Assembly (NCBI GenBank): GCA_963718915.1
Contig: CAVRAI010000001.1
Span: 390,001-422,000, forward strand
Reading direction: 5' to 3'
Length of the DNA: 32,000 nucleotides
Source of the DNA: an uncultured Chloroflexia bacterium
GTDB taxonomy: Bacteria; Chloroflexota; Ktedonobacteria; Ktedonobacterales; JADMIN01
The notes under the pieces are model-generated. The model worked only from the letters and a program-made list of their open reading frames with translations. It was not told where the DNA came from and ran no database searches. Positions 2,832-27,073 of this stretch are shown one piece after another. A program made the translations under genes and the position numbers. Every line of letters starts with the position of its first letter. The stretch's first letter is position 1.

Positions 2832-2913
2832 CTGGCACGAATAGTGTTGCGTGAACCCGTATCTACGGTATAATGCGCGCGGCACTACCCGGCACATCAG
2901 GAGGCGTCCGGTG
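2832..2913 (+). promoter_or_regulatory. 82-bp repeat copy 1: TTGCGT-16-TATAAT promoter plus conserved 40-nt leader, pointing into the 3' end of the minus-strand TIR gene
   Basis: 76/82 identical to 4880-4961 by hand alignment. -35 at 2847-2852 and -10 at 2869-2874. The 50 nt TACGGTATAATGCGCGCGGCACTACCCGGCACATCAGGAGGCGTCCGGTG are identical in both copies. Confidence 0.6.
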
Positions 2914-3037: not shown

Positions 3038-4681
3038 CTAGGCACTCTCTGTTAGCCTACTCAAAAGGCCACGCATTTCAAGCTCCCTCTTATGGAGAAG
3101 ATCTGCCATATCATAATCTTGATGTTGTAAGGCAATGTCTTTCTCGAACATAAGGGCTTCTAGCGCTTGCGGGATTGATAGTTTTTCGGCGTTTTCAGAG
3201 CTTCCAGAATTCTTAAGCGCTTCGATAACAGCTGCCCGCACCCTTTCGAGATTGACACCTAGAGCTTCCAGCACTCCAGCGGCGATGCCCTCACCCTCCC
3301 GCACCATTCCCAAGAGCAAATGCTCGGTACCAACGTAGTGATGGTTCAGTCGCCGTGCCTCATCAACTGCAAGCTGGAGTATTGTTTTGGAGCGTGGCGT
3401 CAACCCTATCTGGCTCGATTCAACATGGTCGCCACGCCCAATGATAAATTCGACAGCACTACGCACCTTGCCAAGTTCGATTCCCAACTTGGCCAATACC
3501 CTGCCAGCTACTCCGTTGCCTTCACGTACCAGTCCTAGCAATAGATGTTCGGACCCAATGTAGTTATGCTCGAAGCGCCGCGCTTCATTCTCTGCCAGGT
3601 GCAACACAGAGTGAGCACGCTCAGTAAAAAAGTCTAATTTGTCAATATCACCAGGCGTACGGTATGATTCAAACGACATGTCTGGCAAGCTTCTCTTCAT
3701 TAACAGTGATTTGCCAGCAATCCCATCTTCCGCTTGCCGTTTCCATCCCTGCCATTCGACACTTGTGGCATCGAATTGGACCCCACGCTGACAGACTTTC
3801 AACGCTTTGTCCCATTGGCCGAGCGCGAGTAACCACTGCACCTGTTCTCGCAAGATTTGTTCGCGCTTCTCTCGTCCATGGGTGCAGACATAGGCATTCT
3901 CCCAGGCCAATTGGGCTGCTTCAATATCTGGTGCGTCCTGGGCCATCAGCCATCGTGCCAATATTTGCCAGTAATCGCCCCTGAATTCATTTATTTCTAG
4001 CGCGTGCCGCAGATTCGCAAGCGCATTTTGCTGTTCGCCAAGCCTATATTGGGCTTGAGCCAATTCTGCATAAATGCGCTCATCGCGCGTGTTATCAGAA
4101 AATACGAGCGCCCTTTGCGCAAAGAGCATTACATCGTGCCACAGTTCCTGGTGAAAAGCCTCATGCACCTCATTGGCCAATGCAAGTGAACGTTCTGCCT
4201 GAGGGGCTAGTGCTAATGCATCTTTATCAGTTGCGCGCTCTGAAGCGGTTCCACTAATTACGCGTCCTGAGCTCTGCCAGTGAGCTTCCAGGATGTCTGG
4301 CGGCTGTTCTGGTGAGAGATCCACCTGTTGGAATAGATGCAGGAACGAGGAAAGTCTGCTGATGTCGGTCCGTGTCAGGGTTGGATCAATACTTATAGGG
4401 ATAATGCGATGAGTACGGACCGAAAAGGTTAGATCAAGCGCGAGGCGTGTTTCTGCGCGAACCCAGGTCGCCACGACACTATGTTTAGAGAGGACAAGAA
4501 GAAAGATTGGACGACCCTCCAACTCCGTCTGTATACGGTCGAGCCAATCATCTCCGCTCTGCAGTTGCTCGCGGTCATAGAATGCGTCCATGCCCATAGT
4601 CGCTGTAAGCCACGTGTAAAGACGTTCACAAAAAGGGGTATCGAAATGCGAGTGGCTAATGAAGATTTTTTCCCCTGCCAT
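3038..4681 (-). CDS. TIR - TPR-like repeats - double Clp_N repeat - UVR-like motif fusion protein (547 aa)
   Basis: TIR: KIFISHSHFD and LLVLSKHSVVATWVRAE (Glu77). TPR-like helices span aa ~165-315. Clp_N x2: ARRFEHNYIGSEHLLLGLVREGNGVAGRVLAKLGI and ARRLNHHYVGTEHLLLGMVREGEGIAAGVLEALGV. UVR-like: KDIALQHQDYDMADLLHKRELEMRGLL. RBS GAAGGGA lies 7 nt before the ATG. Confidence 0.85.
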   Translation of the reverse strand: MAGEKIFISHSHFDTPFCERLYTWLTATMGMDAFYDREQLQSGDDWLDRIQTELEGRPIFLLVLSKHSVVATWVRAETRLALDLTFSVRTHRIIPISIDPTLTRTDISRLSSFLHLFQQVDLSPEQPPDILEAHWQSSGRVISGTASERATDKDALALAPQAERSLALANEVHEAFHQELWHDVMLFAQRALVFSDNTRDERIYAELAQAQYRLGEQQNALANLRHALEINEFRGDYWQILARWLMAQDAPDIEAAQLAWENAYVCTHGREKREQILREQVQWLLALGQWDKALKVCQRGVQFDATSVEWQGWKRQAEDGIAGKSLLMKRSLPDMSFESYRTPGDIDKLDFFTERAHSVLHLAENEARRFEHNYIGSEHLLLGLVREGNGVAGRVLAKLGIELGKVRSAVEFIIGRGDHVESSQIGLTPRSKTILQLAVDEARRLNHHYVGTEHLLLGMVREGEGIAAGVLEALGVNLERVRAAVIEALKNSGSSENAEKLSIPQALEALMFEKDIALQHQDYDMADLLHKRELEMRGLLSRLTESA

Positions 4682-4879: not shown

Positions 4880-4961
4880 CTGGCACGAATAGTGTTGCAT
4901 GGATGCGCATGTACGGTATAATGCGCGCGGCACTACCCGGCACATCAGGAGGCGTCCGGTG
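4880..4961 (+). promoter_or_regulatory. 82-bp repeat copy 2: TTGCAT-16-TATAAT promoter plus conserved leader upstream of the 5011 gene
   Basis: Direct repeat of 2832-2913. -35 at 4895-4900 and -10 at 4917-4922. The leader continues about 50 nt to the ATG at 5011. Confidence 0.6.
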
Positions 4962-5010: not shown

Positions 5011-5793
5011 ATGGGCGAGGATACAGAACAACGCGATGTCATGGTCGAACCGGAAGAGACGCCCAGAGAGAGCAAGAACCCATCGTCGCCCACCGCATCG
5101 GATCAGGCGGCTGATGAGCCGCGACTGGTGCGGCGAATCGCTCCGTGGGCGATGGCGGTCATCGCGCTGATCCTCGTCGGTATGCTGGCGTTGCTCTTCG
5201 CGGACACACACTCGACCGACGCCGCCGTGCGCCTAACGCCGACCGCCACGCCCGCGCCGACGATTACCCCCGCGCCGACGGCGACGCCAGAGCCAATCGA
5301 TGGCTTCCAATTCTATCGCGATCCCGCGAGCCACTTTATCATCCAGTATCCCCTGAACTGGGAGGTCTCCTCCGATAACACGAGCCAGGGCATCGAGTTT
5401 TGCGACGACTGCACGAATCCCGGCTATATCGTTCAGGTCAACACGCCGAGCAATCTGGGCGATGTTGGGCCGCCACCCAACCAGAGCTCCGCCGCCGACT
5501 GGGTGACCTATGCGTTGAATGGACTCGCCTCGCATCTACAATCCGGCACCCTGACGGTGCAAGGCCCACAGCAGGCCATCGTGATCGGCGGGGTGGTCTG
5601 GCAGAGCGGCGGCGCGACGGTCTCTGACAGCAGTGGCGGCGCGCGCTTCCGGGTGCAGGTCTATGCGACGGTCTATGAAGGGAAGCCCTACATTCTGGTA
5701 CTCTCTACCACAGAGGATCGCTTCACCGCCGGAACCATTCAGTTCTTTGGGCCAATGCTGCAGAGCTTCGAGTTTATTCCGCAGACGCCGTAG
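5011..5793 (+). CDS. Membrane-anchored hypothetical protein: acidic N-terminus, one TM helix, Pro/Thr linker, extracytoplasmic alpha/beta domain
   Basis: 260-aa ORF. TM helix WAMAVIALILVGMLALLF and linker TPTATPAPTITPAPTATPEP. The C-terminal domain (FIIQYPLNWEV...YILVLSTTEDRF) resembles PsbP/DcrB-like folds, but I cannot confirm that. Confidence 0.6.
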   Translation: MGEDTEQRDVMVEPEETPRESKNPSSPTASDQAADEPRLVRRIAPWAMAVIALILVGMLALLFADTHSTDAAVRLTPTATPAPTITPAPTATPEPIDGFQFYRDPASHFIIQYPLNWEVSSDNTSQGIEFCDDCTNPGYIVQVNTPSNLGDVGPPPNQSSAADWVTYALNGLASHLQSGTLTVQGPQQAIVIGGVVWQSGGATVSDSSGGARFRVQVYATVYEGKPYILVLSTTEDRFTAGTIQFFGPMLQSFEFIPQTP

Positions 5794-8890: not shown

Positions 8891-9142
8891 ATGATGGAGT
8901 CGCTTTCCCAGGTCGTGTTGCTCGTTGATATGCCAGAGCATCGATTGCGCGTAGGTGACGTGGGCGTTGTGGTTGATGTGCATCCGGGCACACCTGCAAC
9001 GGGTAATGTCGCAGGCTATAGCGTCGAGTTCGTTACCATGAGTGGGGAAACGATGGCAGTACTCGAACTTGAAGAAACACAGATACGCCCTGTCCGCTCA
9101 ACCGATATTGCCCATGTGCGCGAGCTTGCCAGCGCCTCGTAA
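8891..9142 (+). CDS. DUF4926-like small protein (83 aa)
   Basis: MMESLSQVVLLVDMPEHRLRVGDVGVVVDVH...YSVEFVTMSGETMAVLELEETQIRP fits the DUF4926 pattern (V.L..DLPE.GL..GD.G.VV.V......Y.VEF....G.T.A...L...Q). The internal ATG at 8891 is preferred because the longer ORF from 8795 starts inside the hairpin repeat. Confidence 0.6.
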   Translation: MMESLSQVVLLVDMPEHRLRVGDVGVVVDVHPGTPATGNVAGYSVEFVTMSGETMAVLELEETQIRPVRSTDIAHVRELASAS

Positions 9143-9165
9143 AGCGTACCCGATAAGGAAAACCT

Positions 9166-9897
9166 GTGACGCCCAACGCCTATTCTTCGCTATGGTTTCG
9201 CCTCTTCATGCCCTTGCAGACAGACGAATCCACCGAGAAGGATGTTGCCTTTCTCGCCCGCCAGCTCCCGCTCCCGCGCTATGTGCGTCTGCTAGACCTC
9301 TGCTGCGGATATGGGCGTCATGCGCTGCGGCTGGCGGAACGTGGCTATCAAATGACAGGGCTGGATCGCGACCCGGAGGCCACCGCCGAGGCTGAGCGCC
9401 GCACGCGCGCGGCAAATCAGCAGGTGACATATCTCGTCGGCGATATGCGCGAGGTAGGCGAATTACCCGGAACGTTCGACGGGGTCATCAACATGTGGCA
9501 GAGCCTGCCCTATTTCGATGAGGCAACCAATGCCGAGGTGCTGCGCCAGGTACGCGGCAAGCTGACGCCAGGCGGGCGCTTCATCGTGGATATCTACAAT
9601 CGCGAGTACTTCGAGCGCAACCAGGGCCAGCGACGCCAGGAGATCGACGGGACGGTAGTCGAATCCGACGGATATATGCAGGGCAATCGCTGGCACTCCG
9701 TGCTGACCTATCGCGATGCGGCTGGCGCAGTCATCGGCGGCGATCACATGGAGTGGCAGATGTTTACCCCGGACGAGTTCGTAGCCCTGGCGTCCGAATG
9801 TGACTTTACCTCGCGGTTGGCCTGCGCCTGGGCGGATGAGAACATCGCGCCAACCCCAGATGTCGCGCGGATGCAGGTCGTCCTTGAGCGCGTCTAA
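9166..9897 (+). CDS. Class I SAM-dependent methyltransferase
   Basis: GTG start with AAGGAA 5 nt upstream. Motif I is VRLLDLCCGYGRHALRLAERG, followed by GLDRD, YLVGDMRE, FDGVINMWQSL and LTPGGRFIVD. Confidence 0.85.
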   Translation: MTPNAYSSLWFRLFMPLQTDESTEKDVAFLARQLPLPRYVRLLDLCCGYGRHALRLAERGYQMTGLDRDPEATAEAERRTRAANQQVTYLVGDMREVGELPGTFDGVINMWQSLPYFDEATNAEVLRQVRGKLTPGGRFIVDIYNREYFERNQGQRRQEIDGTVVESDGYMQGNRWHSVLTYRDAAGAVIGGDHMEWQMFTPDEFVALASECDFTSRLACAWADENIAPTPDVARMQVVLERV

Positions 9898-9899
9898 TA

Positions 9900-10072
9900 C
9901 CGAACCTGGGTGGATTGCCGTCATACGGCGGCAGACCGTAGCGTGGACGCTCCGGCGCTCCGCCTCTCTGGTTTAATCGTCAGGGCCTTGCGCTCTCTCA
10001 GGCTCCGGCACGCTCCTCACAGACAACGGCCCAGCCGGACACGGCATTATTTTGGGTTCACCCGCCTCAACT
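9900..10072. repeat. Degenerate copy of the MITE-like element family
   Basis: The core GACCGTAGCGTGGACGCTCCGGCG..CCGCCTCTCTGG (9934-9972) matches GGCCGTAGCGTGAACGCTCCGGCG...CCGGCCTCTCTGG of the 11940-12098 element. CCGGACACGGCATT (~10035) resembles its arm. The boundaries are uncertain. Confidence 0.35.
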
Positions 10073-11784: not shown

Positions 11785-11838
11785 TTAATACACCGCATAG
11801 CCGCCGACGACCGCGCGGTGATAGCCCTCGTGCGGCAG
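11785..11838 (-). pseudogene. Remnant: last ~17 codons of a paralog/allele of the GT-C glycosyltransferase gene
   Basis: The minus-strand translation LPHEGYHRAVVGGYAVY* compares with LPHEGYTRAVVGGYVIYYYTG* at 13708-13770. The 39-nt core (11800-11838) is 34/39 identical by hand. There is no upstream gene body. Confidence 0.7.
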
Positions 11839-11939
11839 AGTGTGGCTTTGCCTCGCGACTGATCTGCGCCTGGGCGGATGAGGCCATTCCGCCATCCCCA
11901 GATGTCGCGCGGATGCAGGTTGTCCTTGAGCGAACCTAA
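11838..11939 (+). pseudogene. Remnant: last 33 codons plus stop of a diverged copy of the methyltransferase gene
   Basis: ECGFASRLICAWADEAIPPSPDVARMQVVLERT* compares with ECDFTSRLACAWADENIAPTPDVARMQVVLERV* (9796-9897). The length is the same, 86/102 nt are identical by hand count, and the stop is at the same position. There is no upstream gene body. Confidence 0.8.
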
Positions 11940-12098
11940 TGTGGTTTTACCATGTACGACGGACACGGGAATTGCGGTGGGGTGAGCAGGCCGTAGCGTG
12001 AACGCTCCGGCGAATTTCCCGGCCTCTCTGGCCCATGTGCTGGCAGGTCCCGGCAGGCCCACCCCAGCACGCTGTTCGGGGTTATTTCTAAAACCACA
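11940..12098. mobile_element. 159-bp MITE-like non-autonomous element
   Basis: Perfect 10-bp terminal inverted repeats TGTGGTTTTA (11940-11949) and TAAAACCACA (12089-12098). It is flanked by TAA on both sides (11937-11939 and 12099-12101) and has no coding capacity. Related copies occur at ~21121-21288 and, degenerate, at ~9900-10072. Confidence 0.7.
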
Positions 12099-12265
12099 TA
12101 AGGCGCAGGAACACAGCTCACATGCGCGAGCTTGCCAGCGCCTCGTACGCCGTGACCGTCGTGGATTGGGCCGTAATTACGAAGTCGTCCTGTGCGAACA
12201 TCTCAAGGGAAAGTCTTGCTCGCGCAGTGGGTCATCTCTGTGCTTGCGAAGCCTACGCCTCCATC

Positions 12266-12294
12266 TTGCACGCTATGGCGCCTGATGCTACACT
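12266..12294 (+). promoter_or_regulatory. Sigma70-type promoter of the TIR-FGS gene (TTGCAC-17-TACACT)
   Basis: TTGCAC at 12266-12271, a 17-nt spacer and TACACT at 12289-12294, about 50 nt upstream of the start. Confidence 0.45.
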
Positions 12295-12341: not shown

Positions 12342-13655
12342 GTGGCCAGAGCCATGAGCGCATTTCATACGACCTTCGTCAGCCATGCCCACGTCGATAA
12401 CGACCTCTGCGACCGCTTCGTCGCCGCATTGCGGGCACGCGGGATAGACATCTGGTATGACCGCAACAACGCCCAGGCGGGCCATTTCCTCGACCGGGAG
12501 ATCGAGCAGCAACTGAAGCAGCGCTCCGCCTTCGTCCTGCTGATGACGCAGCAGGCGCTCGACTCCTTCTGGGTGCAACAGGAGCTAGACGCCTATCGCG
12601 GGCTGATGGCGCAAGATCGCGCGCGTCTGCTGTTGCCCGTGCGCATCGGCCCCTGCCAGGTGACGCCGTTTCTCAATGCCCTGCTCTGGATCGACGCGCT
12701 GGCGATGCCCTTCGACCAGGCGCTAGACGAGATCGCCGCCGCGCTGATGGTGCAGGGCGCTCCATCGGCTCAGCCGCCCGTTGTCACACCACCGCCCCGC
12801 GATAGCTTGCCGCCGCTCGGCCCTGCGCCCGCGCCTGCGAATAGCGCGCCCGCGCTGCATCTCACCCCCATGTCGCTTTATAATCTCGGCTTTCGTGGCT
12901 ACCGCGTGAACGGCGTCGAGTGCATCCTGCCACCGCTCTGCCCGGTACCCGGTGGCGTCTTCACGATGGGCAGCGACAAAACCCGTGACCAAGCGGCGTT
13001 TGACGGGGAGACGCCACAATATCCCGTCGAGGTGGATGGCTTCGCCATTGGCCAGCATCCCGTCACCGTCGCCGAGTACGCCTGCGCCGTGCGCGCCAAA
13101 GCGGTACGCGAGCCATCGAAAGTCGCCCACCCTGATGTGGATTGGACGAAGCAGCAGACACACCCCGATCACCCGGTGGTCTGCGTCTGGTGGAAAGATG
13201 TGCTTGCCTATGCGCAGTGGCTGGCCAAGACGACAGGGCAGCGCTGGCGACTGCCGAGTGAGGCGGAGTGGGAGAAGGCGGCGCGTGGGGATGACGGGCG
13301 TATCTATCCCTGGGGCGACACCTTCGACAAGGTTCGCTGCAACACCAGCGAAAGCGACATCAGAACGACGACGCCCGTAGGCAGCTACCCCAGTGGCGAG
13401 AGTCCGTATCACGTCCAGGATATGACTGGCAACGTCTGGGAGTGGACGAGTACGCTGTATCAGCCGTATCCCTACCGTAAAAACGATGGGAGAGAGAATC
13501 CAAATTCCATTGATAGTCGAGTGCTGCGTGGCAGTTCGTGGGTCGGCTACCAACAGAACATGCGCGCAGCCTATCGCCTCCTCGGCCGACCCGCCTTCCT
13601 CCACGTCTACAGCATTGGGGTTCGTCTGGCGGTCTCGGCGCCTGGTTCAGCATAA
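12342..13655 (+). CDS. TIR domain - Pro-rich linker - FGE-sulfatase (SUMF1/formylglycine-generating-enzyme-like) domain protein
   Basis: TIR: TTFVSHAHVDN, IWYD and AFVLLMTQQALDSFWVQQE (Glu81). FGE-sulfatase: GGVFTMGSD, HPVTVAEY, HPVVCVWWKDVLAYAQWL, RLPSEAEWEKAARG, YPWGD, GNVWEWT and RVLRGSSW. An alternative start is the ATG at 12354. Confidence 0.85.
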   Translation: MARAMSAFHTTFVSHAHVDNDLCDRFVAALRARGIDIWYDRNNAQAGHFLDREIEQQLKQRSAFVLLMTQQALDSFWVQQELDAYRGLMAQDRARLLLPVRIGPCQVTPFLNALLWIDALAMPFDQALDEIAAALMVQGAPSAQPPVVTPPPRDSLPPLGPAPAPANSAPALHLTPMSLYNLGFRGYRVNGVECILPPLCPVPGGVFTMGSDKTRDQAAFDGETPQYPVEVDGFAIGQHPVTVAEYACAVRAKAVREPSKVAHPDVDWTKQQTHPDHPVVCVWWKDVLAYAQWLAKTTGQRWRLPSEAEWEKAARGDDGRIYPWGDTFDKVRCNTSESDIRTTTPVGSYPSGESPYHVQDMTGNVWEWTSTLYQPYPYRKNDGRENPNSIDSRVLRGSSWVGYQQNMRAAYRLLGRPAFLHVYSIGVRLAVSAPGSA

Positions 13656-13663
13656 GGGCGCGA

Positions 13664-13698
13664 ACCTCACCCCCGTCCCCTCTCCTGTGGGAGAGGGG
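13664..13698. repeat. CCCCTCTCC hairpin repeat, copy b (reverse orientation; between convergent genes)
   Basis: ACCTCACCCC (13664-13673) is followed by a perfect 9-bp stem, CCCCTCTCC (13677-13685), loop tgtg, GGAGAGGGG (13690-13698). Confidence 0.8.
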
Positions 13699-13707
13699 AG
13701 CCAGAAT

Positions 13708-15606
13708 CTACCCCGTGTAATAGTAGATGACATACCCGCCGACGACTGCGCGGGTATAGCCCTCGTGTGGCAGCCCCGCAGCCTCCGCAAGTTGGGCGAA
13801 TTGGCGATCCTGCACGCTGCCGAGCGTCAGCAGATAGGCGGGATGAGGCGTCCATGCAAGCTCATCCACCCACGGCTGATAGCGGTTGGCGTTGAGCGTC
13901 AGATTCGGCTGACCGACCTCGCCACGAATCGCGCAGTACAGCCGCTCGTCCACCTCGAAGGCGACACGATAGCATGCCCAGTAGTCGTTGGTGTAGTAGG
14001 CCGTGACCTGATGGGCGTCGAAGAAGGCAATGATCGGGCGATCCACCGGCACAATCGGCTGAGCAAAGCGCGTGGCGTCGCCAGAATAGGCCAGCGTCTG
14101 CGCGCCACCATAGAGGCTGCTCGCCAGCATCCACACCAGCCCCAGCGCCGCTATAGCTGGGACGATCCAGCGTTTCCTTAAGGCGACCTTGCCAGTTGAA
14201 TGCAATGTTGTGCTGCGGCCCCTCCCCTCATAGGGGAGGGGGTAGGGGGAGAGGTTCTTCGCCGCTGACCACAACACGCCGACGAAGAGCGGCGTCGCCA
14301 GATAGAGCGGCAGCAGATAGCGCGCCGAGGTGAATTGGAAGTTGGCGGCGTCACGGCTGGTGAGGAAGAGCGCCAGCGTCAGCAGCGCGATGCCCAGCAG
14401 CATCGCCCGCAGCCAGCGCCGCGCATTTGCCTCAGTATTCGATTGCGCCGCCAGGCGCGCCACCTCGCCCTCTCCGGCCGATTGGATGCGCATGCCGCGT
14501 CGAGCCAGCCAGTCGCGCACGACGGCCAGTTGCGGCGTCAGTCGCAGCCAGAGCCAGAGCCAGCGTCCAAGCTGCCAGGCGACCACACCCAGCAGGAAGA
14601 GCGCGCCCAGCGAGATCATCACGTTCGGCGCCTGACACGCCAGATCGTTTCCGGCGGTGGAACGAGCCATTGCGGGCGGGTAGGAGTCCCAGATGTTGCC
14701 CTGGGTGATACAGACCTGTGGGCTGCCCGCCACCACTGGTAGCCCGGCGGTGAGCGCCCCGGAGGACTGGAGCAGCACGCCCGAAGGATTGCTCTGGTGC
14801 GAAAGCTGTTTGTAGGTGGCGTTGCCGGTCGCGAGATTGAAGCTGATGTAGGGCCACGCGCCGAGCAGCATCCCTACCACCAGCGCCACCCCGGCCAGCG
14901 AGAGCAGCTCGCGCCAGCGTCCGATGAGCAGCGCGCCCGCCGCCACCAGCAGAATCGGCGCGATCAGCATATCTGACCAGAGGCCCACCCCGGCGAGCAC
15001 GCCGAGCGCCGCATAGAACGCGATGCAGCGGAGCCAGCCCGCGCGGCTCGTCGGGCGTGTATAGGGCAGCCGCAGCCGCGACCAGACACCGAGCAGAATC
15101 AGCCCGCCAAGCAACAGCAGCTCCTGATAGCCGCCAATCGGCGCCAGTTGTCGCAGCGTGAAGATCGGCGGGCTGATGACCAGCCACGCGAGCGCCAGCA
15201 ATCCCACCGTCGGCCCGTAGGCGGCGCGCCCAATCCAGTAGACGGTGGCGAGGAAGCCGAGCGTCAGCAGCAGCGCGCTCAGTCCCAGCACGAAGGTGGA
15301 TGAGCCAAAGAGCGCGAAGAGCAGCGCGGCGAAATAGGCCTCGAACGGCCCCATGTAGTTCTGGCCCCAGAAGAAGGTGGGACGCTCGCCGTGCAGGATA
15401 TGGCGCGCCATCAGCCCAATGACCGCTTCATCGCTATCGAGCGCGGGCCAGCCACGCGCCAGCAGGATCAGGCGATAGATGGCCGCCAGCGCGAGCAGGA
15501 GCAGCGCCACGCGCCCCGGCGTCAGCGCGCGCATTGTGGTGCGCAGCAGCCCGCCAGATTGCTTGCCCGGTGCGGCTCGTGATTCGGTCGTCGCGCTCAT
15601 GCCCAT
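13708..15606 (-). CDS. GT-C fold glycosyltransferase, PMT/ArnT-like (GT39/GT83-like) polytopic membrane protein
   Basis: 632-aa ORF with many TM helices. The first loop, WPALDSDEAVIGLMARHILHGERPTFFWGQNYMGPFEAY, carries the acidic pair typical of GT-C enzymes. The C-terminal soluble domain is uncharacterised. The start could be 15606, 15600 or a later Met. Confidence 0.6.
   Translation of the reverse strand: MGMSATTESRAAPGKQSGGLLRTTMRALTPGRVALLLLALAAIYRLILLARGWPALDSDEAVIGLMARHILHGERPTFFWGQNYMGPFEAYFAALLFALFGSSTFVLGLSALLLTLGFLATVYWIGRAAYGPTVGLLALAWLVISPPIFTLRQLAPIGGYQELLLLGGLILLGVWSRLRLPYTRPTSRAGWLRCIAFYAALGVLAGVGLWSDMLIAPILLVAAGALLIGRWRELLSLAGVALVVGMLLGAWPYISFNLATGNATYKQLSHQSNPSGVLLQSSGALTAGLPVVAGSPQVCITQGNIWDSYPPAMARSTAGNDLACQAPNVMISLGALFLLGVVAWQLGRWLWLWLRLTPQLAVVRDWLARRGMRIQSAGEGEVARLAAQSNTEANARRWLRAMLLGIALLTLALFLTSRDAANFQFTSARYLLPLYLATPLFVGVLWSAAKNLSPYPLPYEGRGRSTTLHSTGKVALRKRWIVPAIAALGLVWMLASSLYGGAQTLAYSGDATRFAQPIVPVDRPIIAFFDAHQVTAYYTNDYWACYRVAFEVDERLYCAIRGEVGQPNLTLNANRYQPWVDELAWTPHPAYLLTLGSVQDRQFAQLAEAAGLPHEGYTRAVVGGYVIYYYTG
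14219..14255. repeat. Hairpin repeat, copy c, embedded in-frame in the glycosyltransferase CDS
   Basis: Perfect stem CCCCTCCCC (14219-14227), loop tcata, GGGGAGGGG (14233-14241), then GTAGGGGGAGAGGT. On the coding strand this encodes NLSPYPLPYEGRGRS. Confidence 0.75.
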
Positions 15607-18634: not shown

Positions 18635-18964
18635 CCGACGACACGGACATCTATCCCCATAGACCCCCACAACTTGACGGGAAGAGTAGCCAAAACAGGC
18701 AGACATCCCGGCTATATTCTTGTGCCTGCTTCCTCTCATCGGGTACAATGGCATCCGTCTCAAACTAGATTTCTGGCTATTATCGCATGGCTGCCGAACC
18801 GCTGCCCGCCCTCATTGGCAGGCGGGTGGCCGCTGGCGCAGCCAGGAACGATAGCGCGCCGCACTCATCGCATGCAAACGACATACTAAAACAGTAGATG
18901 ACATCGCACGACTGCATAGTCAAGCATAGTCAAACATACACAAGGACAAAGGGGGCGATTGCCA

Positions 18965-19756
18965 GTGACGACACGGGTATTTGCGATCGCGAATCAAAAG
19001 GGTGGCGTAGGCAAGACCACCTCGACGATAAATCTGGGGGCATATCTGGCGAAAGCGGGCCGCAGAACGCTCATCATCGACCTTGACCCACAGTCCAACA
19101 CGACGACCGGCCTCGGCGTGGATTCTCACGCGGTTGGAACCTCCATCTACGAGGTGCTCGTAGATGTGAGCGTTAACCCCGCCGATGTCATCCGCAAGGA
19201 GATCCGCCCCAACCTCGCGCTCCTCCCGGCCAAGGTCGATCTCTACGCCGCCGATATCGAACTGGTCTATCTGGATAACCGTGAGTACCGGATGCGGCAT
19301 ATCCTCGACCAGATCCGCGACGACTACGAGTTCATCTTGATCGACTGTCCACCGTCGCTCGGCCTACTGACCGTGAACGCGCTGACCGCCGCCGATGGGG
19401 TAATTCTGCCCCTCCAATGCGAATACTTCGCCCTCGAAGGTATGCAACAGTTGCTCAATACCATTCGGCTGGTGCGCGACCGCCTGAACAACAAGGTGAT
19501 GTTGTTTGGCGTGGTGCTGACGATGTTTGACTCGCGGACCAACCTCGCCACAGAGGTGGTCAATGAGGTCAGCCAGCACTTCCCCAAGGAGAAGTTCGAA
19601 ACACTGATCCCGCGCAACGTGCGGCTTTCGGAGGCGCCAAGCTTTGGCCTCACTGTGCTGGAGCACGATCCGCGCTCTCCGGGCGCGCTGGCCTATCAGA
19701 AACTGGCAGAGGAAGTAATCGCTCGCGCAGAAATCATGGAGTCGCTCTATGCCTAA
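18965..19756 (+). CDS. parA: ParA/Soj chromosome-partitioning ATPase
   Basis: VFAIANQKGGVGKTT deviant Walker A, then IIDLDPQSN and LIDCPPSLG. The GTG at 18965 (AAAGGGGG 9 nt upstream) is preferred over the TTG at 18959 in the track. Confidence 0.9.
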   Translation: MTTRVFAIANQKGGVGKTTSTINLGAYLAKAGRRTLIIDLDPQSNTTTGLGVDSHAVGTSIYEVLVDVSVNPADVIRKEIRPNLALLPAKVDLYAADIELVYLDNREYRMRHILDQIRDDYEFILIDCPPSLGLLTVNALTAADGVILPLQCEYFALEGMQQLLNTIRLVRDRLNNKVMLFGVVLTMFDSRTNLATEVVNEVSQHFPKEKFETLIPRNVRLSEAPSFGLTVLEHDPRSPGALAYQKLAEEVIARAEIMESLYA

Positions 19757-20834
19757 ACAACGATTCGGTCTCGGTCGTGGCCTGGATGCGCTGATTCCCG
19801 GCGCCAGCCTCGCCGATGTCGCGCCCCTCTCGGAAGATACGCCGCTCGATTCGAGCCTCTCGCCCTCGTCGGTCTTTGAGGCGCCGATAGACGCCATCTC
19901 GCCGAACCCACAGCAGCCACGCGCCGTGGTGGATGACGATCCGCAACTGCGCGAACTGGCCGCCTCGATCCGCGAGTATGGGCTGCTCCAGCCGTTGCTG
20001 GTGACGATCAGCGGGCAGGACGACCACGGTCCGCTCTTCCAGCTGATCGCGGGCGAGCGCCGCTGGCGGGCCGCGCGACTGGCGGAACTGCGGATGGTTC
20101 CGGTGGTGATTCGCGAGGCAACGCCGCAACTGATGCTGGAGATGGCGCTGATCGAAAACCTCCAGCGCACCGACCTCAACCCGCTGGAAGAGGCGCAGGG
20201 CTATCTGATGCTGATGGATGAGTATGGGCTGACGCAGGAAATGGTCGCCCAGCGCATCGGACGTAACCGCGCCACGGTTGCGAATACGGTGCGGCTGCTC
20301 CAACTGCCCGACGAGGTGCGCGAGGCGCTGGTGACGATGCCCCGCGCGTTCACCGAGGGCCACGCCCGCGCCGTCTTACAGATCAATGGCGACGCGGCGC
20401 GCATCAACGCGATGAAGATGATTATCGCGCAGGGGATGAGTGTGCGGCAGGCCGAAGAACTGGCGCGCCGGTTAAATGAGCGGGCGCTGGGTATCGCCAA
20501 CGACCGCCGCGGCTCGGTGACGCGCACCCAGAGTGGCGAGACGCGCGCGCTGGAGGAGGAGTTCACCCGCGCCGTCGAGATGAAGGTACGGCTCCAGCGG
20601 ACGACCCGCGGCAAGGGCCAGCTTACGCTCTACTTCACCAACGACCAGCAACTCGAAACGCTCTACTCGCGGCTGGTCGGCGCGATGCGCGCCGGGCAGA
20701 ACGGCCACGACGCCTACGCCCTGCTGGACGGCAGCGAGCCATTGAACCTGTCGTACGACGACCTCGCCGACGAAGACGACGACCTGATCGACGACGAGGA
20801 TGACGGAGACGACGGAGATGACGCTGGCGAGTAG
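19749..20834 (+). CDS. parB: ParB/Spo0J partition protein with strongly acidic C-terminal tail
   Basis: GLGRGLDALIP, ISPNPQQPR, LLQPLLV, LIAGERRWRAARLA, the HTH LTQEMVAQRIGRNRATVANTVRLLQLP, and the tail DDLADEDDDLIDDEDDGDDGDDAGE. It overlaps parA by 8 nt. Confidence 0.9.
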   Translation: MPKQRFGLGRGLDALIPGASLADVAPLSEDTPLDSSLSPSSVFEAPIDAISPNPQQPRAVVDDDPQLRELAASIREYGLLQPLLVTISGQDDHGPLFQLIAGERRWRAARLAELRMVPVVIREATPQLMLEMALIENLQRTDLNPLEEAQGYLMLMDEYGLTQEMVAQRIGRNRATVANTVRLLQLPDEVREALVTMPRAFTEGHARAVLQINGDAARINAMKMIIAQGMSVRQAEELARRLNERALGIANDRRGSVTRTQSGETRALEEEFTRAVEMKVRLQRTTRGKGQLTLYFTNDQQLETLYSRLVGAMRAGQNGHDAYALLDGSEPLNLSYDDLADEDDDLIDDEDDGDDGDDAGE

Positions 20835-21120: not shown

Positions 21121-21288
21121 TAGTAAAACGACATCAGAACACCCTACGTCGTGGTGGGCGAGGCAGGCCGTAGCATACATGCATCAATGCTACGGCGAGT
21201 TTCCCGGCCTCTCTGGCCATTTGCTGGCAGGCCCCGGCTTGCTCGCCTCACCGCAATGCCCGTGTCCGTCGTACATGGTAAAAGTACA
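21121..21288. mobile_element. Second copy of the MITE-like element (left boundary uncertain)
   Basis: The core CCGTAGC...GCGAGTTTCCCGGCCTCTCTGGCCATTTGCTGGCAGGCCCCGGC matches 11990-12055. The right arm CACCGCAATGCCCGTGTCCGTCGTACATGGTAAAAGTACA is the reverse complement of the left arm of the 11940 copy. Confidence 0.6.
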
Positions 21289-21437
21289 TCAACCGCCCGT
21301 CTTCACGCGCCCGCCAGCGCGCCGACGCTATAGCAGAAGCGCGGCGATACGCGGTACAATGCGGCGCGGTGCAATGCGGCATCTGGGTACGTTCCCTCCC
21401 CTTGCTGGCCCCGCTGTGCATAGAAGGAGAAGCCGCC

Positions 21438-21997: not shown

Positions 21998-23569
21998 GTG
22001 AGTGACTCGGCCCAGCGGCGGCCTTCCTGGCGGATGGCGCTGATCGTCCTGGCGGTTGCGGTGGTGCTAGCGAGCGTAGGCGCGTTTGCCCTCGTGCGCC
22101 TGCGCCAGCCAGACGCCCCTCAGCCGCGCACAGCACGGACGGCCCAGCGGACGCCCGCTCCGACGTGCGCGCAGCAATCGCCATCATCGTCGTCATCGTC
22201 ATCCTCGGCATCATCGTCATCCTCGGCAACGGCGACGAATATCCGCGTCAGCAACGACGCTTACAGGGCGCACAGCGAGCCGATGCTTGCGATCAACCCC
22301 GCGAATCCGCTCAATCTGGTCGGCGGATCGAAGTTCTTCACCGACCCGGCGCGCTACCGCTTCCAGATTGGCACGTACACCTCCTTCGACGGCGGCTGCA
22401 CCTGGATTGATAACGGCGTATTGCCCGGCTTTGCGCCCGGCGAGACGACCTCCGACGTGACGGTCGCCTTCGGGCCGGAGAATCGCGTCTATATCGCGGT
22501 GCTCTACACCGACAATGTGAGCGATAGCGGCATCGCCGTTTTCACCTCCACCGATGGCGGCAAGACCTTTGGCAAGGCGGTGCCCGCCTATGATGACCCG
22601 ACCGGCGCGGTCTTCAGCGACAAGCCGTGGATCACCGTGGATATGAGCAGCGGCCCGTATCGTGGCAGCGTCTATGTCGTCTGGTCGTATGACTATGGCG
22701 GTACCTGCGGCTTCGAGAACTCCTGCAAACAGGGGGTTGGCTTCGCGCGCTCGGTTGATGGTGGCGCAACGTTTTCGGCGGCGCGTCAGGTGGAGGGCGA
22801 TGCGCCATTCTGCACGAATCCCGCACCGGGGCGCTCGTCCGATGATCGCGCGTGTGACGCTGCGCTGGGCGCGGTTCCAGCGGTTCTGCCCGATGGCACG
22901 CTGGCGGTAGCCTATGACTACATGGATGTCACCAGCAGCGGCAAAATCCCTACGCGCCTCGCGGTCATCACCTCGCCCGATGGCGGCGCGACCTGGACAG
23001 CGCCCGTGTTGATTGCCACCATCTCCGATATTCTCGGCGTCTTTCGGCCAGACCGCTATCGTAACGCCTCGCTGCTCGCCTTCGCCGCCGGTCCAGCGCG
23101 TGGCAGGCTCTACGTCGCCTGGGCGGATAAGCGGATTGGCGATAGCGATATCCTGTTCGCCTCGTCCAGCGATCAGGGTCGGACGTGGTCAGCGCCCGCG
23201 CGCGTCAACGACGATGCCACCAGGGACGGCGCCAACCAGTTCCAGCCGCAGCTTGCCGTCGCACCCAATGGTGTCGTGACCGTCTCATTCTTCGATACCC
23301 GCCGCGATAGCCACCACCATCTGATCGATGTCTACCTGGCCCAGTCGGTGGATGGCGGCGCGAGCTTCCTGCCAAATGTGCGCGTGACCACGCAGAGCTG
23401 GGACCCGACGGTGGACGCGCCTGTCGATGGCAGCGGCCTGCAATTCATCGGCGATTATCAGGGGCTGGCGGTGAGCGACCAGTACGCCCTCCCCTTCTGG
23501 AACGATACGCGCACCGGCAGCCAGGAGATCTTCATAGCGCTGTTCCCGAGCGCCCAACCGCAACACTGA
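21998..23569 (+). CDS. Membrane-anchored BNR/Asp-box repeat beta-propeller protein (sialidase-like fold)
   Basis: GTG start with a GGAGGGAG RBS, an N-terminal TM helix and a poly-Ser linker. Five Asp-boxes are present: STDGGKTF, SVDGGATF, SPDGGATW, SSDQGRTW and SVDGGASF. Confidence 0.8.
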   Translation: MSDSAQRRPSWRMALIVLAVAVVLASVGAFALVRLRQPDAPQPRTARTAQRTPAPTCAQQSPSSSSSSSSASSSSSATATNIRVSNDAYRAHSEPMLAINPANPLNLVGGSKFFTDPARYRFQIGTYTSFDGGCTWIDNGVLPGFAPGETTSDVTVAFGPENRVYIAVLYTDNVSDSGIAVFTSTDGGKTFGKAVPAYDDPTGAVFSDKPWITVDMSSGPYRGSVYVVWSYDYGGTCGFENSCKQGVGFARSVDGGATFSAARQVEGDAPFCTNPAPGRSSDDRACDAALGAVPAVLPDGTLAVAYDYMDVTSSGKIPTRLAVITSPDGGATWTAPVLIATISDILGVFRPDRYRNASLLAFAAGPARGRLYVAWADKRIGDSDILFASSSDQGRTWSAPARVNDDATRDGANQFQPQLAVAPNGVVTVSFFDTRRDSHHHLIDVYLAQSVDGGASFLPNVRVTTQSWDPTVDAPVDGSGLQFIGDYQGLAVSDQYALPFWNDTRTGSQEIFIALFPSAQPQH

Positions 23570-23865
23570 CTTCGGCCATCAAGTCCAACGTCCATAGGCT
23601 GGTCGGAACTAAAGACCAAGCGGGTGCGTTTCAAGCGAACGTGCTTTCGCGTCCCAAACAGATGTAGGGGGCTTACCCGCTGATGCAATGCTTGCCAGCC
23701 TACAAATTTGGCGCCCAGGCTAGCATTGTCCTCAACACCCCCAACAAAAAAACCAGCTACGGCATATAACACTATGAGAGGCATTCAACACTTCGAGCGT
23801 TGCACTTCTCAACACTCGACCGACCCACCATTGGCGAAACGCTCGGCCAGGGCAAGAAGGAAGGG

Positions 23866-24513
23866 ATGGAAAGCGTGATCTCCCGAGAGGATGCTGATGA
23901 TGCCCTGGCATTGCGCCGCTGTCAGCAAGGTGATGTTTCAGGGCTAGAAGTGCTCGCAGCGCGCTACCAACTGCGAGCCATCCGTATCGCTTATCTGCTA
24001 CTGCGGGACCACGCTGCTGCAGAAGATGTAGCACAAGACAGTTTCCTTCGCGTCTTTCAGGCAAGCGCGCAGTTTCACGAGGGAACGCAATTCGCCCCAT
24101 GGTTCTACCGCATTGTGTTAAATACTGCGCGTCAATACCAGCGCACATTGCGTCGGCGGCGAGAGAGCAGCCTTGATATTCTAATGCTCTCGGATGCCAC
24201 CAGCCCCCAGCTGCCTCTCGCGGAAGATCCCTTTGTGAGTGCGGAACAGACAGAGAGGCGCGCTGCCGTGCTAGATGTGCTCATGGCATTAACGATCAAA
24301 CAGCGTGAGGCGCTTGTCCTCCGATACTTCTGCGGCCTGAGTGACAGCGTCATTGCGCAGATCCTTAATTGCCCTCACGGCACAGTTCGCTGGCGCCTGC
24401 ATGCGGCGCATCGCGCGTTTGAGCGCGCCGCATCTACCAGATACCCGTGGCTCCTTGACCGTGAGAGCCCACTTTCCCAGGTATTAGCACGAGTTGAAGG
24501 AGGAACGAACTGA
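23866..24513 (+). CDS. ECF-type sigma-70 family RNA polymerase sigma factor
   Basis: Region 2: AEDVAQDSFLRVFQASAQFHEGTQFAPWFYRIVLNTARQYQR. Region 4: LTIKQREALVLRYFCGLSDSVIAQILNCPHGTVRWRLHAAHRAFE. The start at ATG 23866 is tentative. Confidence 0.85.
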   Translation: MESVISREDADDALALRRCQQGDVSGLEVLAARYQLRAIRIAYLLLRDHAAAEDVAQDSFLRVFQASAQFHEGTQFAPWFYRIVLNTARQYQRTLRRRRESSLDILMLSDATSPQLPLAEDPFVSAEQTERRAAVLDVLMALTIKQREALVLRYFCGLSDSVIAQILNCPHGTVRWRLHAAHRAFERAASTRYPWLLDRESPLSQVLARVEGGTN

Positions 24514-25688: not shown

Positions 25689-25852
25689 GAGTGAGTGCTG
25701 AGGTTCACGCTCTCCATCGGAGCGGAGCCGACACCCCGATTCCCATCGAGGCCAACACACATTTCAGCAAGAGAAAGAAGCATGCGCCTGCGTAGAAATG
25801 CGAATAGCTCCCGTGCTCAGGCACACCAGATAGACAGCTGCCGGAATCGCCA

Positions 25853-26995: not shown

Positions 26996-27073
26996 CTCAC
27001 CGGACGCCTCAAGACGTTGTTGACCACTCACGTAGCGCATTTACAAAGGGGTAGACATCTACAAGAGGCGCCA

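What the first reader, a model, noticed from the sequence alone, without database searches (positions are those of the whole stretch)
12342..13655. Second, unrelated TIR effector fused to an FGE-sulfatase (SUMF1-like) domain
Seen: an N-terminal TIR (TTFVSHAHVDN; AFVLLMTQQALDSFWVQQE with Glu81), a Pro-rich linker, and a C-terminal FGE-sulfatase domain with many family motifs (HPVVCVWWKDVLAYAQWL, RLPSEAEWEKAARG, YPWGD, GNVWEWT, RVLRGSSW). The gene has its own TTGCAC-17-TACACT promoter.

Established knowledge: FGE-sulfatase-type (C-type-lectin-like fold) domains recur next to TIR, caspase-like and other effector domains in computational surveys of bacterial conflict systems. To my knowledge no TIR-FGS protein has a demonstrated ligand or phenotype.

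Inference: this is a ligand-sensing module coupled to a NADase effector. Two different TIR architectures lie within 9 kb of a housekeeping backbone. That suggests the lineage scatters single-gene immune sensors in small hotspots rather than in one island.
Basis: partly seen in the sequence, partly recalled or inferred. Interest (0 to 1): 0.65.

Follow-up and report, generated by a model that had tools for sequence, protein, structure and literature searches.

The report
TIR enzyme fused to hypervariable sensor
This gene encodes a small cytoplasmic protein that joins a TIR "alarm" enzyme domain to a lectin-like binding domain whose tip carries the mutational signature of a bacterial hypermutation system (a diversity-generating retroelement), making it a likely antibody-like invader sensor of a kind already predicted by computational surveys but never tested.

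Summary
An intact ORF (12342/12354–13655, +) encodes TIR_2 (1.3e-20) plus FGE-sulfatase (2.6e-50). The TIR catalytic Glu (E81) is invariant across relatives. Both FGE catalytic cysteines are absent, so the C-terminal domain is a binding module, not an enzyme.

Residues 401–425 form a hypervariable block between the conserved anchors RGGSW and GFRLA, and it carries the signature of a diversity-generating retroelement (DGR) variable region:
- NNC codons dominate, and K/E/Q/M/W are depleted (6% versus 21%).
- Third codon positions are more conserved than first and second.
- The variable columns line up with AAC codons in real DGR templates.
- Two near-identical Ktedonobacterales orthologs differ at 17 sites in this 68-nt block, all at codon positions 1–2.

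Homologous TIR–FGE genes are demonstrable DGR targets elsewhere (L024, L103). Truncated DGR reverse transcriptases sit beside close relatives.

The 32-kb window holds no RT, Avd or template repeat. This copy is therefore either a remote target or, more likely, an orphaned one with a frozen variable region.

Best reading: a single-chain sensor–effector in which ligand binding triggers TIR NADase activity. It is a new member of a kind already described computationally. Function is inferred, not shown.

The parts
12266..12294 (+). Putative promoter: -35 TTGCAC, 17-nt spacer, extended -10 TGcTACACT
   Evidence: The sequence is present. It matches 7 of 12 consensus positions and the scanner did not call it. 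Three homologs in unrelated contexts become alignable at the -35 box, and the -10 is invariant.
12342..13655 (+). TIR-FGE(CLec) coding sequence. The mechanical start is GTG 12342 (437 aa). The likely true start is ATG 12354 (433 aa).
   Evidence: ORF list, Pfam, homolog N-termini and conserved 5'UTR.
12375..12731 (+). TIR domain (aa 12-130), including the W77-x-x-x-E81 motif. The E81 codon is GAG at 12582-12584.
   Evidence: Pfam TIR_2 at 1.3e-20. Aligned to PdTIR and TcpB/BtpA. E81 is invariant. pLDDT is about 90 or higher across most of the domain.
12747..12911 (+). Pro-rich, largely disordered linker (aa 136-190)
   Evidence: 29% Pro over aa 136-180. pLDDT is below 50 at aa 140-152. Entropy is high.
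12942..13631 (+). FGE-sulfatase / C-type-lectin-fold domain (aa 201-430) lacking the FGE catalytic Cys pair
   Evidence: Pfam at 2.6e-50. Cys336 and Cys341 are absent. Foldseek hits include ToxD, CalU17, FGE, PvdO and the DGR variable protein TvpA 2y3c.
13542..13616 (+). DGR-type variable region (aa 401-425, VGYQQNMRAAYRLLGRPAFLHVYSI) between the anchors RG(G/S)SW and G(F/V)RLA
   Evidence: Highest entropy in the protein. NNC codon and K/E/Q/M/W-depletion signature. Third codon positions are more conserved than positions 1-2. The register matches AAC codons of real templates. Orthologs L171 and L172 differ only here.
13676..13699 (.). Perfect 10-bp hairpin (TCCCCTCTCC-TGTG-GGAGAGGGGA) between the convergent genes. 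Probably a bidirectional terminator; a role as a DGR target-recognition cruciform is undetermined.
   Evidence: A similar hairpin lies at 26954-26995, which favours a generic terminator or repeat.
11796..11943 (.). Recombination scar upstream of the gene. It holds a pseudo-fragment of the 3' end of the downstream membrane-protein gene (11796-11838; 88% identical to 13731-13773) and a pseudo-fragment of the 3' end of the methyltransferase gene (11832-11943; 83% identical to 9790-9898).
   Evidence: Repeats D1 and D5. The translations match the C-termini of the intact genes.

Best explanation
The gene encodes a cytoplasmic, single-chain sensor-effector protein.

N-terminal half: a TIR domain with the catalytic Glu intact, so it is a predicted NAD+-consuming enzyme.

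C-terminal half: an FGE-type C-type-lectin domain that has lost the FGE catalytic cysteines. In their place is a 25-residue ligand-binding loop that is a variable region (VR) written by a diversity-generating retroelement (DGR). A DGR makes an error-prone reverse transcript of a template repeat (TR) and copies it into the VR, randomising the adenine positions, mostly in AAC codons.

Proposed mechanism (inferred): the hypervariable surface binds an invader-derived molecule. Ligand-driven clustering brings TIR domains together, which switches on NAD+ cleavage (depletion or a cADPR-type signal) and arrests the infected cell.

Shown here: the domain architecture; Glu retention; Cys loss; the family-wide DGR mutational signature; recent VR-only change in orthologs; true DGR cassettes that target homologous TIR-FGE genes; RT relics beside close relatives.

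Inferred: NADase activity, the nature of the ligand, and the immune role.

The window has no RT, Avd or TR. This copy is therefore either served in trans by a DGR elsewhere in the genome or, more likely (about 2:1), an orphan whose VR is now frozen as a fixed-specificity receptor.
For: Architecture and residues.

No TM segment or signal peptide.

VR signature:
- Entropy is 2.69 in aa 401-424 against 1.25 in the rest of the FGE domain.
- K/E/Q/M/W make up 6.0% of residues at the variable columns against 20.6% at other high-entropy columns.
- Per-column spectra fit adenine-only changes: 411 Y/C/F = TAC, 420 L/F/I/V = ATC, 416 R/G/W = AGG, 418 D/G/V/A = GAC.
- Third-position C is 0.74 in the VR against 0.46 elsewhere (p=3e-11). 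After controlling for amino-acid composition, C/(C+T) is 0.93 against 0.67 (p=3e-6).
- In the VR, third-position identity is 0.71 while overall identity is 0.61, the reverse of the rest of the gene.
- The variable columns coincide with AAC codons of the bona fide templates in L024, L029 and L103.

Recent activity in the family:
- L171 and L172 show 4 differences in 2 kb upstream, 4 in the first 1220 nt of the gene, and 17 in the 68-nt VR, all at codon positions 1-2.
- In cluster 5, 15 of 24 VR columns vary against 9 of about 421 elsewhere.

Real DGRs with TIR-FGE targets: L024 (bAvd, RT, one TR, three VRs) and L103.

RT relics beside relatives: L086, L173 (a Ktedonobacterales MAG) and L174.

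Defence context of a relative: SspD/PbeA/PbeC sit next to the L174 cassette.

The window's own VR: 13 of 18 variable codons are NNC (p=0.008), and none of the AAC-type positions holds K/E/Q/M/W.

The proteins are under purifying selection outside the VR: overall identity is 0.7-0.8 against third-position identity of 0.5-0.67.
Against: - No TR, RT or Avd lies in the 32-kb window, nor within 10 kb of seven close relatives. A cognate DGR for this gene is therefore not demonstrated.
- The three RTs found beside the closest relatives (L086, L173, L174) are all truncated.
- Six of the eight clusters whose VR could be compared have a frozen VR while differences accumulate elsewhere.
- The window gene sits among housekeeping genes, not in a defence island.
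- There is no NTPase or other oligomerisation switch of the kind seen in most described effector-STAND-FGS proteins, so how TIR activation would be gated is unknown.
- No TIR-FGE protein has any experimental phenotype in the searched literature.
- Gene conversion between paralogous VRs could mimic part of the L171/L172 pattern.
Confidence: 0.65

Rival explanations
1. Active remote target. The window copy is still being diversified in trans by an intact DGR (RT, Avd, TR) located elsewhere in the same genome. That DGR services several dispersed TIR-FGE paralogs, as described for cyanobacterial 'remote variable proteins'.
For: The window VR keeps a clean NNC signature with no K/E/Q/M/W at AAC-type positions, and its scaffold deviations are typical for the family. 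L171/L172 and clusters 3 and 5 show recent VR-only change even though no TR lies within 10 kb. Remote targets are documented in cyanobacteria (PMC7517822), and metagenome surveys miss them (PMC8144416).
Against: The window has no TR, RT or Avd. The RTs next to relatives are truncated in three loci. Most clusters have a frozen VR. The downstream sequence conserved in the two closest homologs is not retained in the window copy.
Confidence: 0.3
2. A signalling or regulatory protein rather than an immune one. The variable lectin domain senses an endogenous or environmental ligand, and the TIR acts as an adaptor or signal generator for differentiation or stress pathways in a multicellular, differentiating actinomycete-like Chloroflexota lineage.
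For: The gene lies among housekeeping genes. The cyanobacterial precedent was interpreted as 'regulatory pathway tuning' (PMC7517822). No partner effector is present.
Against: The catalytic Glu is strictly conserved. A relative's cassette sits next to the Ssp/Pbe defence system and a TIR-only gene. Hypervariable receptors fit changing non-self ligands better than a fixed endogenous signal.
Confidence: 0.15
3. The hypervariable block arose by ordinary diversifying selection, or by gene conversion among paralogs, without any retroelement.
For: No TR was found near any close family member. Binding loops rich in Y/S/G/D/N can arise by selection. Conversion between paralog VRs that share a scaffold would also confine differences to the variable columns.
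Against: The excess of third-position C survives control for amino-acid composition. Column spectra such as D/G/V/A, Y/C/F and R/G/W reflect single-adenine changes, not chemical similarity. All 17 differences between L171 and L172 fall at codon positions 1-2. The register matches real TRs. DGR RT relics lie directly beside family members.
Confidence: 0.05
4. An enzyme of the SUMF1/EgtB/PvdO family, as public annotations of homologs say ('nonheme iron enzyme', 'formylglycine-generating enzyme', 'ToxD'), with an accessory N-terminal domain.
For: Names given by sources. The best PDB sequence and fold matches are ToxD, CalU17, EgtB and FGE.
Against: The FGE Cys336/Cys341 pair is absent. There is no DinB-type domain with the His triad. 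EgtB, SenA, PvdO and the other NCBIfam models score far below their cut-offs (for example 109 bits against 360). The loop at the FGE active-site position is the most variable part of the protein.
Confidence: 0.03

Closest known systems
DGR variable proteins with an FGE-type C-type-lectin fold (Treponema denticola TvpA, PDB 2y3c; Bordetella phage Mtd as the wider prototype)
   Same: Same fold (Foldseek E=3e-11 to 2y3c). The VR sits at the extreme C-terminus between RGGSW-like and GFR-like anchors. The NNC/AAC mutational signature is the same.
   Different: TvpA and Mtd are surface or phage-tail binding proteins with no effector domain. This protein is cytoplasmic and carries a TIR domain. No cognate TR or RT lies in the window.
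FGS/CLec sensor proteins of bacterial 'conflict systems' (effector-STAND NTPase-FGS, VMAP ternary systems; Kaur et al. 2020/2021, PMC7159879, PMC8195603; Dore et al. 2024, PMC10907252)
   Same: The syntax is an N-terminal effector, TIR among them, with a C-terminal DGR-diversified FGS sensor. The predicted role is an intracellular invader sensor, and these proteins are enriched in multicellular bacteria. L024 shows nSTAND1-FGE and TIR-FGE sharing one TR.
   Different: There is no NTPase switch, vWA/MoxR partner or EAD adaptor. This is a minimal two-domain protein, dispersed as solitary genes each with its own promoter.
Cyanobacterial CLec paralog families with grafted N-terminal signalling domains and 'remote variable proteins' (Vallota-Eastman et al. 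2020, PMC7517822)
   Same: Multi-copy, dispersed CLec genes with a 3'-terminal VR, many of them remote from the DGR. TIR-like domains are listed among the N-terminal partners.
   Different: A different phylum (Ktedonobacterales, Chloroflexota, judged from the best hits). Here TIR is the dominant partner rather than kinase or orthocaspase. The RTs found beside the closest relatives are decayed.
Bacterial TIR NADase effectors (AbTIR, TcpB/BtpA, PdTIR, Thoeris ThsB)
   Same: TIR_2 fold, the FxSHA strand motif and the W-x-x-x-E catalytic motif.
   Different: There is no ThsA partner. The ThsB_TIR profile scores below its cut-off (20.8 against 21.2 bits). The sensor is fused in cis.

Membership tests
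TIR domain NADase (Pfam TIR_2, PF13676) | Profile match above the curated cut-off | tested here: met
   74.6 bits against a cut-off of 28, aa 12-130. PdTIR 3h16 matches at E=5e-10.
TIR domain NADase (Pfam TIR_2, PF13676) | Catalytic Glu in the W-x-x-x-E motif | tested here: met
   E81 aligns with the conserved Glu of PdTIR, TcpB/BtpA and 7uxr. It is invariant in 30 sequences and is retained in the L024, L103, L174 and L172 proteins.
TIR domain NADase (Pfam TIR_2, PF13676) | NAD+ cleavage activity that depends on self-association | not testable with these tools
   Needs a biochemical assay of wild type against E81A.
Formylglycine-generating enzyme (SUMF1/FGE) | FGE-sulfatase fold | tested here: met
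   Pfam at 2.6e-50. Foldseek to human FGE at E=1e-13.
Formylglycine-generating enzyme (SUMF1/FGE) | Copper-binding catalytic Cys pair (human C336 and C341) | tested here: not met
   C336 falls in a 3-residue gap and C341 aligns with Q404. There is no Cys in aa 334-437.
EgtB/OvoA/SenA sulfoxide synthases ('SUMF1/EgtB/PvdO nonheme iron enzyme') | N-terminal DinB-type domain with an iron-binding His triad; equivalog score | tested here: not met
   The N-terminus is a TIR domain. EgtB scores 109 bits against a cut-off of 360, SenA 88.8 against 420, PvdO 80.5 against 500.
DGR variable protein (target of a diversity-generating retroelement) | C-terminal VR in a CLec/FGE fold, with variability confined to template-adenine positions (NNC signature; codon positions 1-2) | tested here: met
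   Met at family level. Met for orthologs L171/L172. In the window copy 13 of 18 variable codons are NNC.
DGR variable protein (target of a diversity-generating retroelement) | Cognate template repeat (TR) whose mismatches to the VR are adenine-specific | tested here: not met
   No TR lies in the 32-kb window or within 10 kb of seven close relatives. The rest of the genome is not available. TRs were found for homologous TIR-FGE genes in L024 and L103.
DGR variable protein (target of a diversity-generating retroelement) | DGR reverse transcriptase and Avd accessory gene in the genome | tested here: inconclusive
   Both are absent from the window. Truncated RTs lie beside relatives in L086, L173 and L174. 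Intact RT and bAvd accompany a TIR-FGE gene in L024.
DGR variable protein (target of a diversity-generating retroelement) | IMH and hairpin target-recognition elements at the 3' end of the VR | tested here: inconclusive
   A 10-bp hairpin lies 21 nt after the stop codon, but a similar one occurs elsewhere in the window. The downstream element conserved in P0003 and P0007 is not conserved here.
Thoeris (ThsA/ThsB) | ThsB-type TIR together with a ThsA (SIR2 or Macro-SLOG) partner | tested here: not met
   ThsB_TIR scores 20.8 bits, below the cut-off of 21.2. There is no ThsA-like gene among the neighbours.
STAND/Avs-type pattern-recognition receptors with FGE-like sensors | Central STAND NTPase between effector and sensor | tested here: not met
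   Only a disordered linker of about 60 aa separates TIR from FGE.

The most novel reading that the evidence does not exclude
Ktedonobacterales carry a dispersed 'germline repertoire' of minimal TIR receptors. Each genome holds several promoter-equipped TIR-CLec genes whose binding loops were written by a DGR. They are either still serviced in trans by one hidden retroelement or have been frozen after repeated loss of the RT. This would be a bacterial case of hypermutated receptors becoming fixed innate receptors. It would also be the simplest known wiring of an antibody-like variable domain directly to an NADase, with no NTPase switch.
Probability: 0.3. Interest if true: 0.75.

Novelty: new member of a known kind. 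Interest (0 to 1): 0.5.

Why it matters
What the cellular targets of DGRs recognise, and what they do once they bind, is an open question. Surveys predict that they are intracellular 'antigen sensors', but none has been tested.

Most described examples are large proteins of 700 to over 1500 aa with NTPase switches and several partners. This family reduces the idea to about 430 residues: one predicted enzymatic readout (TIR, with a single catalytic Glu) and one 25-residue variable loop, expressed from its own compact promoter.

That makes it a tractable model for three experiments:
- Swapping variable regions between natural paralogs to shift specificity.
- Selecting binders.
- Asking whether ligand-induced clustering alone can fire a TIR domain.

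The mix of actively varying and frozen variable regions, together with decayed reverse transcriptases, also gives a natural series for studying how hypermutated receptors become fixed.

Tried and rejected
- Exact look-ups of the window protein, with either start codon, found nothing. The source genome is not in the collection.
They returned only relatives at or below 54% identity and no close Ktedonobacterales loci. They did yield the DGR-positive loci used as controls.
- A search for a TR within 10 kb of the window gene and of seven close relatives was negative. L086 has no TR either.
- tblastn of six DGR RTs and two Avd proteins against the window and the close loci found nothing. The weak RT_L132 hits fall on the FGE C-terminus, probably because that query ORF overlaps a VR-bearing ORF.
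- Probing with the L086 RT fragment, then with a profile of the fragments, found a Ktedonobacterales RT piece (P0188/L173) and the L174 cassette. It found no intact RT on any contig that carries a listed TIR-FGE paralog.
- The consensus promoter and terminator scan found nothing.
- Rfam at gathering threshold found nothing in the window.
- PADLOC matched only the TIR part of other systems' models; there is no model for this architecture.
- I considered and rejected the FGE, EgtB and ToxD enzyme readings and Thoeris membership (see the membership tests).
Full report
OBSERVATION. Pfam places TIR_2 at residues 12-130 (E=1.3e-20, 74.6 bits against a cut-off of 28) and FGE-sulfatase at residues 201-430 (E=2.6e-50). 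PADLOC matches only the TIR portion of models built for other systems. No NCBIfam enzyme model comes near its cut-off; EgtB, for example, scores 109 bits against 360. An AlphaFold2 model built on a 30-sequence alignment is confident for both domains (mean pLDDT 82.6), with a disordered Pro-rich linker (pLDDT below 50 at residues 140-152). The protein has no transmembrane segment or signal peptide, so it is predicted to be cytoplasmic.

START CODON AND PROMOTER. The closest homologs begin at MSAFH, which corresponds to the window's ATG at 12354. I aligned the upstream regions of the window gene and of two homologs (P0003, P0007) that sit in unrelated genomic contexts. The three sequences share nothing until a TCTTG(CAC/ATT/AAC) box. 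From there a 17-nt spacer, an invariant CTGATGCTACACTG (an extended -10) and the 5'UTR down to the ATG are all conserved. By consensus alone it is weak: it matches 7 of 12 positions, the scanner does not call it, and 430 equally good matches occur in the window by chance. The practical consequences are that the gene travels with its own promoter, and that the true protein is probably 433 aa, making E81 into E77.

TIR DOMAIN. E81 (codon GAG, 12582-12584) lies in a W77-x-x-x-E81 motif. That motif aligns with the conserved WxxxE of the solved bacterial TIR proteins PdTIR (3h16), TcpB/BtpA (4c7m, 4lzp, 4lqc) and 7uxr; AbTIR chains (7uwg, 8g83) are also hits over the same region. The Glu is invariant in the 30-sequence alignment and at least 95% conserved among 93 full-length relatives. 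It is also retained in TIR-FGE proteins from other lineages. That this Glu is the catalytic residue of TIR NADases is established knowledge about the family; activity was not tested here.

THE FGE DOMAIN IS NOT AN ENZYME. I verified the human FGE C-terminal sequence against the PDB. Counting back from residue 374 places the copper-binding cysteines C336 and C341 in GGSYMCHRSYCYRYR. In the pairwise alignment C336 falls in a three-residue deletion of the target and C341 aligns with Q404. The target has no cysteine after residue 333. The fold is nevertheless clearly FGE-type C-type lectin. Foldseek's best hits are ToxD, CalU17, human FGE and PvdO, and the DGR variable protein TvpA (2y3c) matches at E=3e-11.

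THE KEY FEATURE IS A DGR-TYPE VARIABLE REGION. Among 93 full-length relatives, the stretch 401-425 is the most variable part of the protein. Its mean column entropy is 2.69, against 1.25 for the rest of the FGE domain. It lies between strongly conserved anchors, giving the layout RGGSW-xxxxxx-ARAA-x-R-xxxx-P-xxxxxxxx-GFRLA. Four independent tests show the footprint of adenine-specific, template-driven mutagenesis:
1. At the variable columns only 6.0% of residues are K/E/Q/M/W, the amino acids that NNC codons cannot encode. At other high-entropy columns the figure is 20.6%. Individual columns also show the spectra expected from mutating one adenine of a fixed codon: Y/C/F at 411, L/F/I/V at 420, S/A/P/T at 404, R/G/W at 416 and D/G/V/A at 418.
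2. In eight close-family genes, third-position C is 0.74 in variable codons against 0.46 elsewhere (p=3e-11). Restricting the test to amino acids with a C/T choice gives C/(C+T) of 0.93 against 0.67 (p=3e-6), so amino-acid composition does not explain the effect.
3. Across six genes the VR shows the highest third-position identity in the gene (0.71) together with the lowest overall identity (0.61). This is the reverse of every other segment.
4. The variable columns coincide, in register, with AAC codons in the template repeats of bona fide DGRs found in the fetched loci. The L024 template encodes RGGSW-NNKPNN-LRSA-N-R-NRNN-P-NQRNNNL-GFRLA. The L029 template, from a Chloroflexia MAG, encodes [33 protein letters not shown].
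In the window copy itself, 13 of 18 variable codons are NNC (p=0.008 against the gene's own C3 frequency), and none of the AAC-type positions holds K/E/Q/M/W.

DIRECT EVIDENCE OF RETROELEMENT ACTION ON THIS ARCHITECTURE. A scan of all fetched loci for repeats with adenine-biased mismatches found TR/VR pairs in eight loci. L024 (Methylococcaceae) is a complete cassette: nSTAND1-FGE, bAvd, RT, TR, a 384-aa TIR-FGE gene, a DNA methylase and a third FGE-domain target. One TR matches all three VRs, with 93-100% of mismatches at template adenines. L103 has a 421-aa TIR-FGE gene followed by bAvd and a TR, between ruvB and queA.

Within the close Ktedonobacterales family, two orthologous loci from different MAGs (L171, L172) differ at 4 positions in 2 kb upstream and at 4 in the first 1220 nt of the gene. 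In the 68-nt VR they differ at 17 positions, every one at codon position 1 or 2. At the protein level, cluster 5 (four proteins at least 90% identical) has 15 of 24 VR columns variable against 9 of about 421 elsewhere, and cluster 3 behaves similarly.

DECAY IS ALSO WIDESPREAD. Six other clusters have an invariant VR while 2-16 differences have accumulated elsewhere. No TR lies within 10 kb of the window gene or of seven close relatives. The window has no RT or Avd, not even as a degraded remnant. DGR-type RTs do lie directly beside relatives, but they are truncated after 77-148 of roughly 350 residues, with no continuation in any frame. The three cases are L086 (the closest metagenomic relative), L173 (a Ktedonobacterales MAG) and L174/L175. 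In L174/L175 the RT relic sits between a 671-aa and a 474-aa TIR-FGE gene, next to a transposase fragment and a TIR-only gene. That cassette adjoins SspD, PbeA and PbeC, a recognised phosphorothioate defence system. This is the best contextual support for an immune role.

FAMILY AND CONTEXT. Of the 120 best homologs, 106 carry both Pfam domains. The best is 78% identical, and every named one is from Ktedonobacterales. The window is therefore probably from that order, although its own protein is not in the collection. An exhaustive search of 1.84 billion cluster representatives found 5,284 proteins at E<=1e-30. Of the best 150, 28 match collinearly from the TIR N-terminus to the FGE C-terminus, so the fusion family is deep. 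Relatives are solitary genes in unrelated housekeeping contexts. One 5.07-Mb genome has at least three, at 1.04, 1.44 and 1.47 Mb.

In the window the gene lies between a DUF2252 gene and a convergent membrane-protein gene. The 655-nt upstream region contains pseudo-fragments of the 3' ends of both the methyltransferase gene (11832-11943, 83% identical) and the downstream membrane-protein gene (11796-11838, 88% identical). This looks like the scar of a recombination that brought in a diverged copy of the neighbourhood. The other TIR gene (3038-4681, TIR-TPR-Clp_N) lies in a low-GC insert flanked by 82-nt direct repeats.

MECHANISM. Shown: an intact TIR with its catalytic Glu; a non-catalytic lectin-fold domain whose tip is a DGR-type variable loop; purifying selection outside the loop. 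Inferred from established knowledge of TIR NADases and of DGR variable proteins: the loop binds a variable, probably invader-derived ligand; binding clusters the TIR domains; NAD+ is then cleaved. How activation is gated without an NTPase is unknown. From the frequencies above, I estimate about 2:1 that this copy is now an orphan with a fixed specificity rather than an active remote target.

COMPARISON WITH THE LITERATURE.
- FGS/CLec domains as DGR-diversified intracellular sensors fused to effectors, TIR included, are described computationally in PMC7159879, PMC8195603 and PMC10907252.
- Dispersed CLec paralogs with remote targets, and TIR-like N-terminal domains, are described in cyanobacteria (PMC7517822).
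- FGE-like sensors are noted in STAND receptors (PMC13581612).
- Metagenome surveys cannot see remote targets (PMC8144416).
- My searches found no description of this Ktedonobacterales family and no experiment on any TIR-FGE protein.
The finding is therefore a new member of a known, computationally defined kind. It is notable for its minimal architecture.

VERDICT. Interest is moderate (0.5): the gene is not a new principle, but it is an unusually simple test case for an untested one.

Noticed in passing
window 2832-2913 and 4880-4961 (flanking 3038-4681): An 82-nt direct repeat (93% identical) brackets the low-GC (~50%) TIR-TPR-Clp_N gene. The repeat contains a TATAAT box, a GGAGG and a GTG, which is the promoter and RBS of the next gene. 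It looks like an insertion that duplicated its target.
   Followed up: partly
window 11796-12158: The upstream intergenic region is a mosaic of diverged copies of neighbouring sequence. It holds the 3' end of the membrane-protein gene (11796-11838 matching 13731-13773), the 3' end of the methyltransferase plus its downstream sequence (11832-11943 and 11986-12012 matching 9790-9957), and the methyltransferase upstream sequence (12116-12158 matching 9110-9152).
   Followed up: partly
window 11939-12066 and 21181-21289: A repeated element of about 130 nt is made of two modules. They are arranged X-Y at one site and Y-X(reverse complement) at the other, at 82-85% identity. There is no Rfam match.
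   Followed up: no
window 13664-13705 and 26954-26995: Similar CCCCTCTCC/GGAGAGGGG hairpins occur at two intergenic sites. They may be a lineage-specific terminator or REP-like element.
   Followed up: no
window 23500-31000: Lower-GC stretches (0.53-0.58) contain an ECF sigma factor with a DUF4179 anti-sigma-like gene (23800-25688), a Bro-N domain gene (28631-29971, -) and an HTH_17 gene (30067-30594, -). These suggest a mobile-element or prophage remnant. ParA/ParB lie at 18959-20834.
   Followed up: no
L024 1953-10261: A Methylococcaceae DGR cassette in which one TR (5632-5755) matches three VRs, in nSTAND1-FGE, in TIR-FGE and in a 642-aa FGE protein. A DNA methylase gene is embedded between the targets.
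   Followed up: partly
L103 5977-7793: A TIR-FGE gene with bAvd and a TR, but no RT gene in the locus, wedged between the housekeeping genes ruvB and queA. It may be a DGR that depends on an RT supplied in trans.
   Followed up: no
L174 357-14368: A defence island holding SspD, PbeA and PbeC, two unannotated genes, TIR-FGE (671 aa), a truncated DGR RT, a DDE transposase fragment, a TIR-only gene (574 aa) and TIR-FGE (474 aa). The two FGE domains are 84% identical at the DNA level over 827 nt, in inverted orientation.
   Followed up: partly
proteins P0301, P0302, P0330, P0337, P0370: Among the closest cluster representatives are giant proteins of 2,987-4,448 aa that match the FGE domain in 6-11 separate stretches. 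These are tandem arrays of this lectin-type domain with unknown function.
   Followed up: no
L001 1421-1470 and L004 9308-9360: The two closest homologs share a conserved sequence just after the stop codon, GGCG..GGTT(G/A)AAACCGCGCCT, which can form a hairpin. It is a candidate DGR target-recognition element, and it is not retained downstream of the window gene.
   Followed up: no
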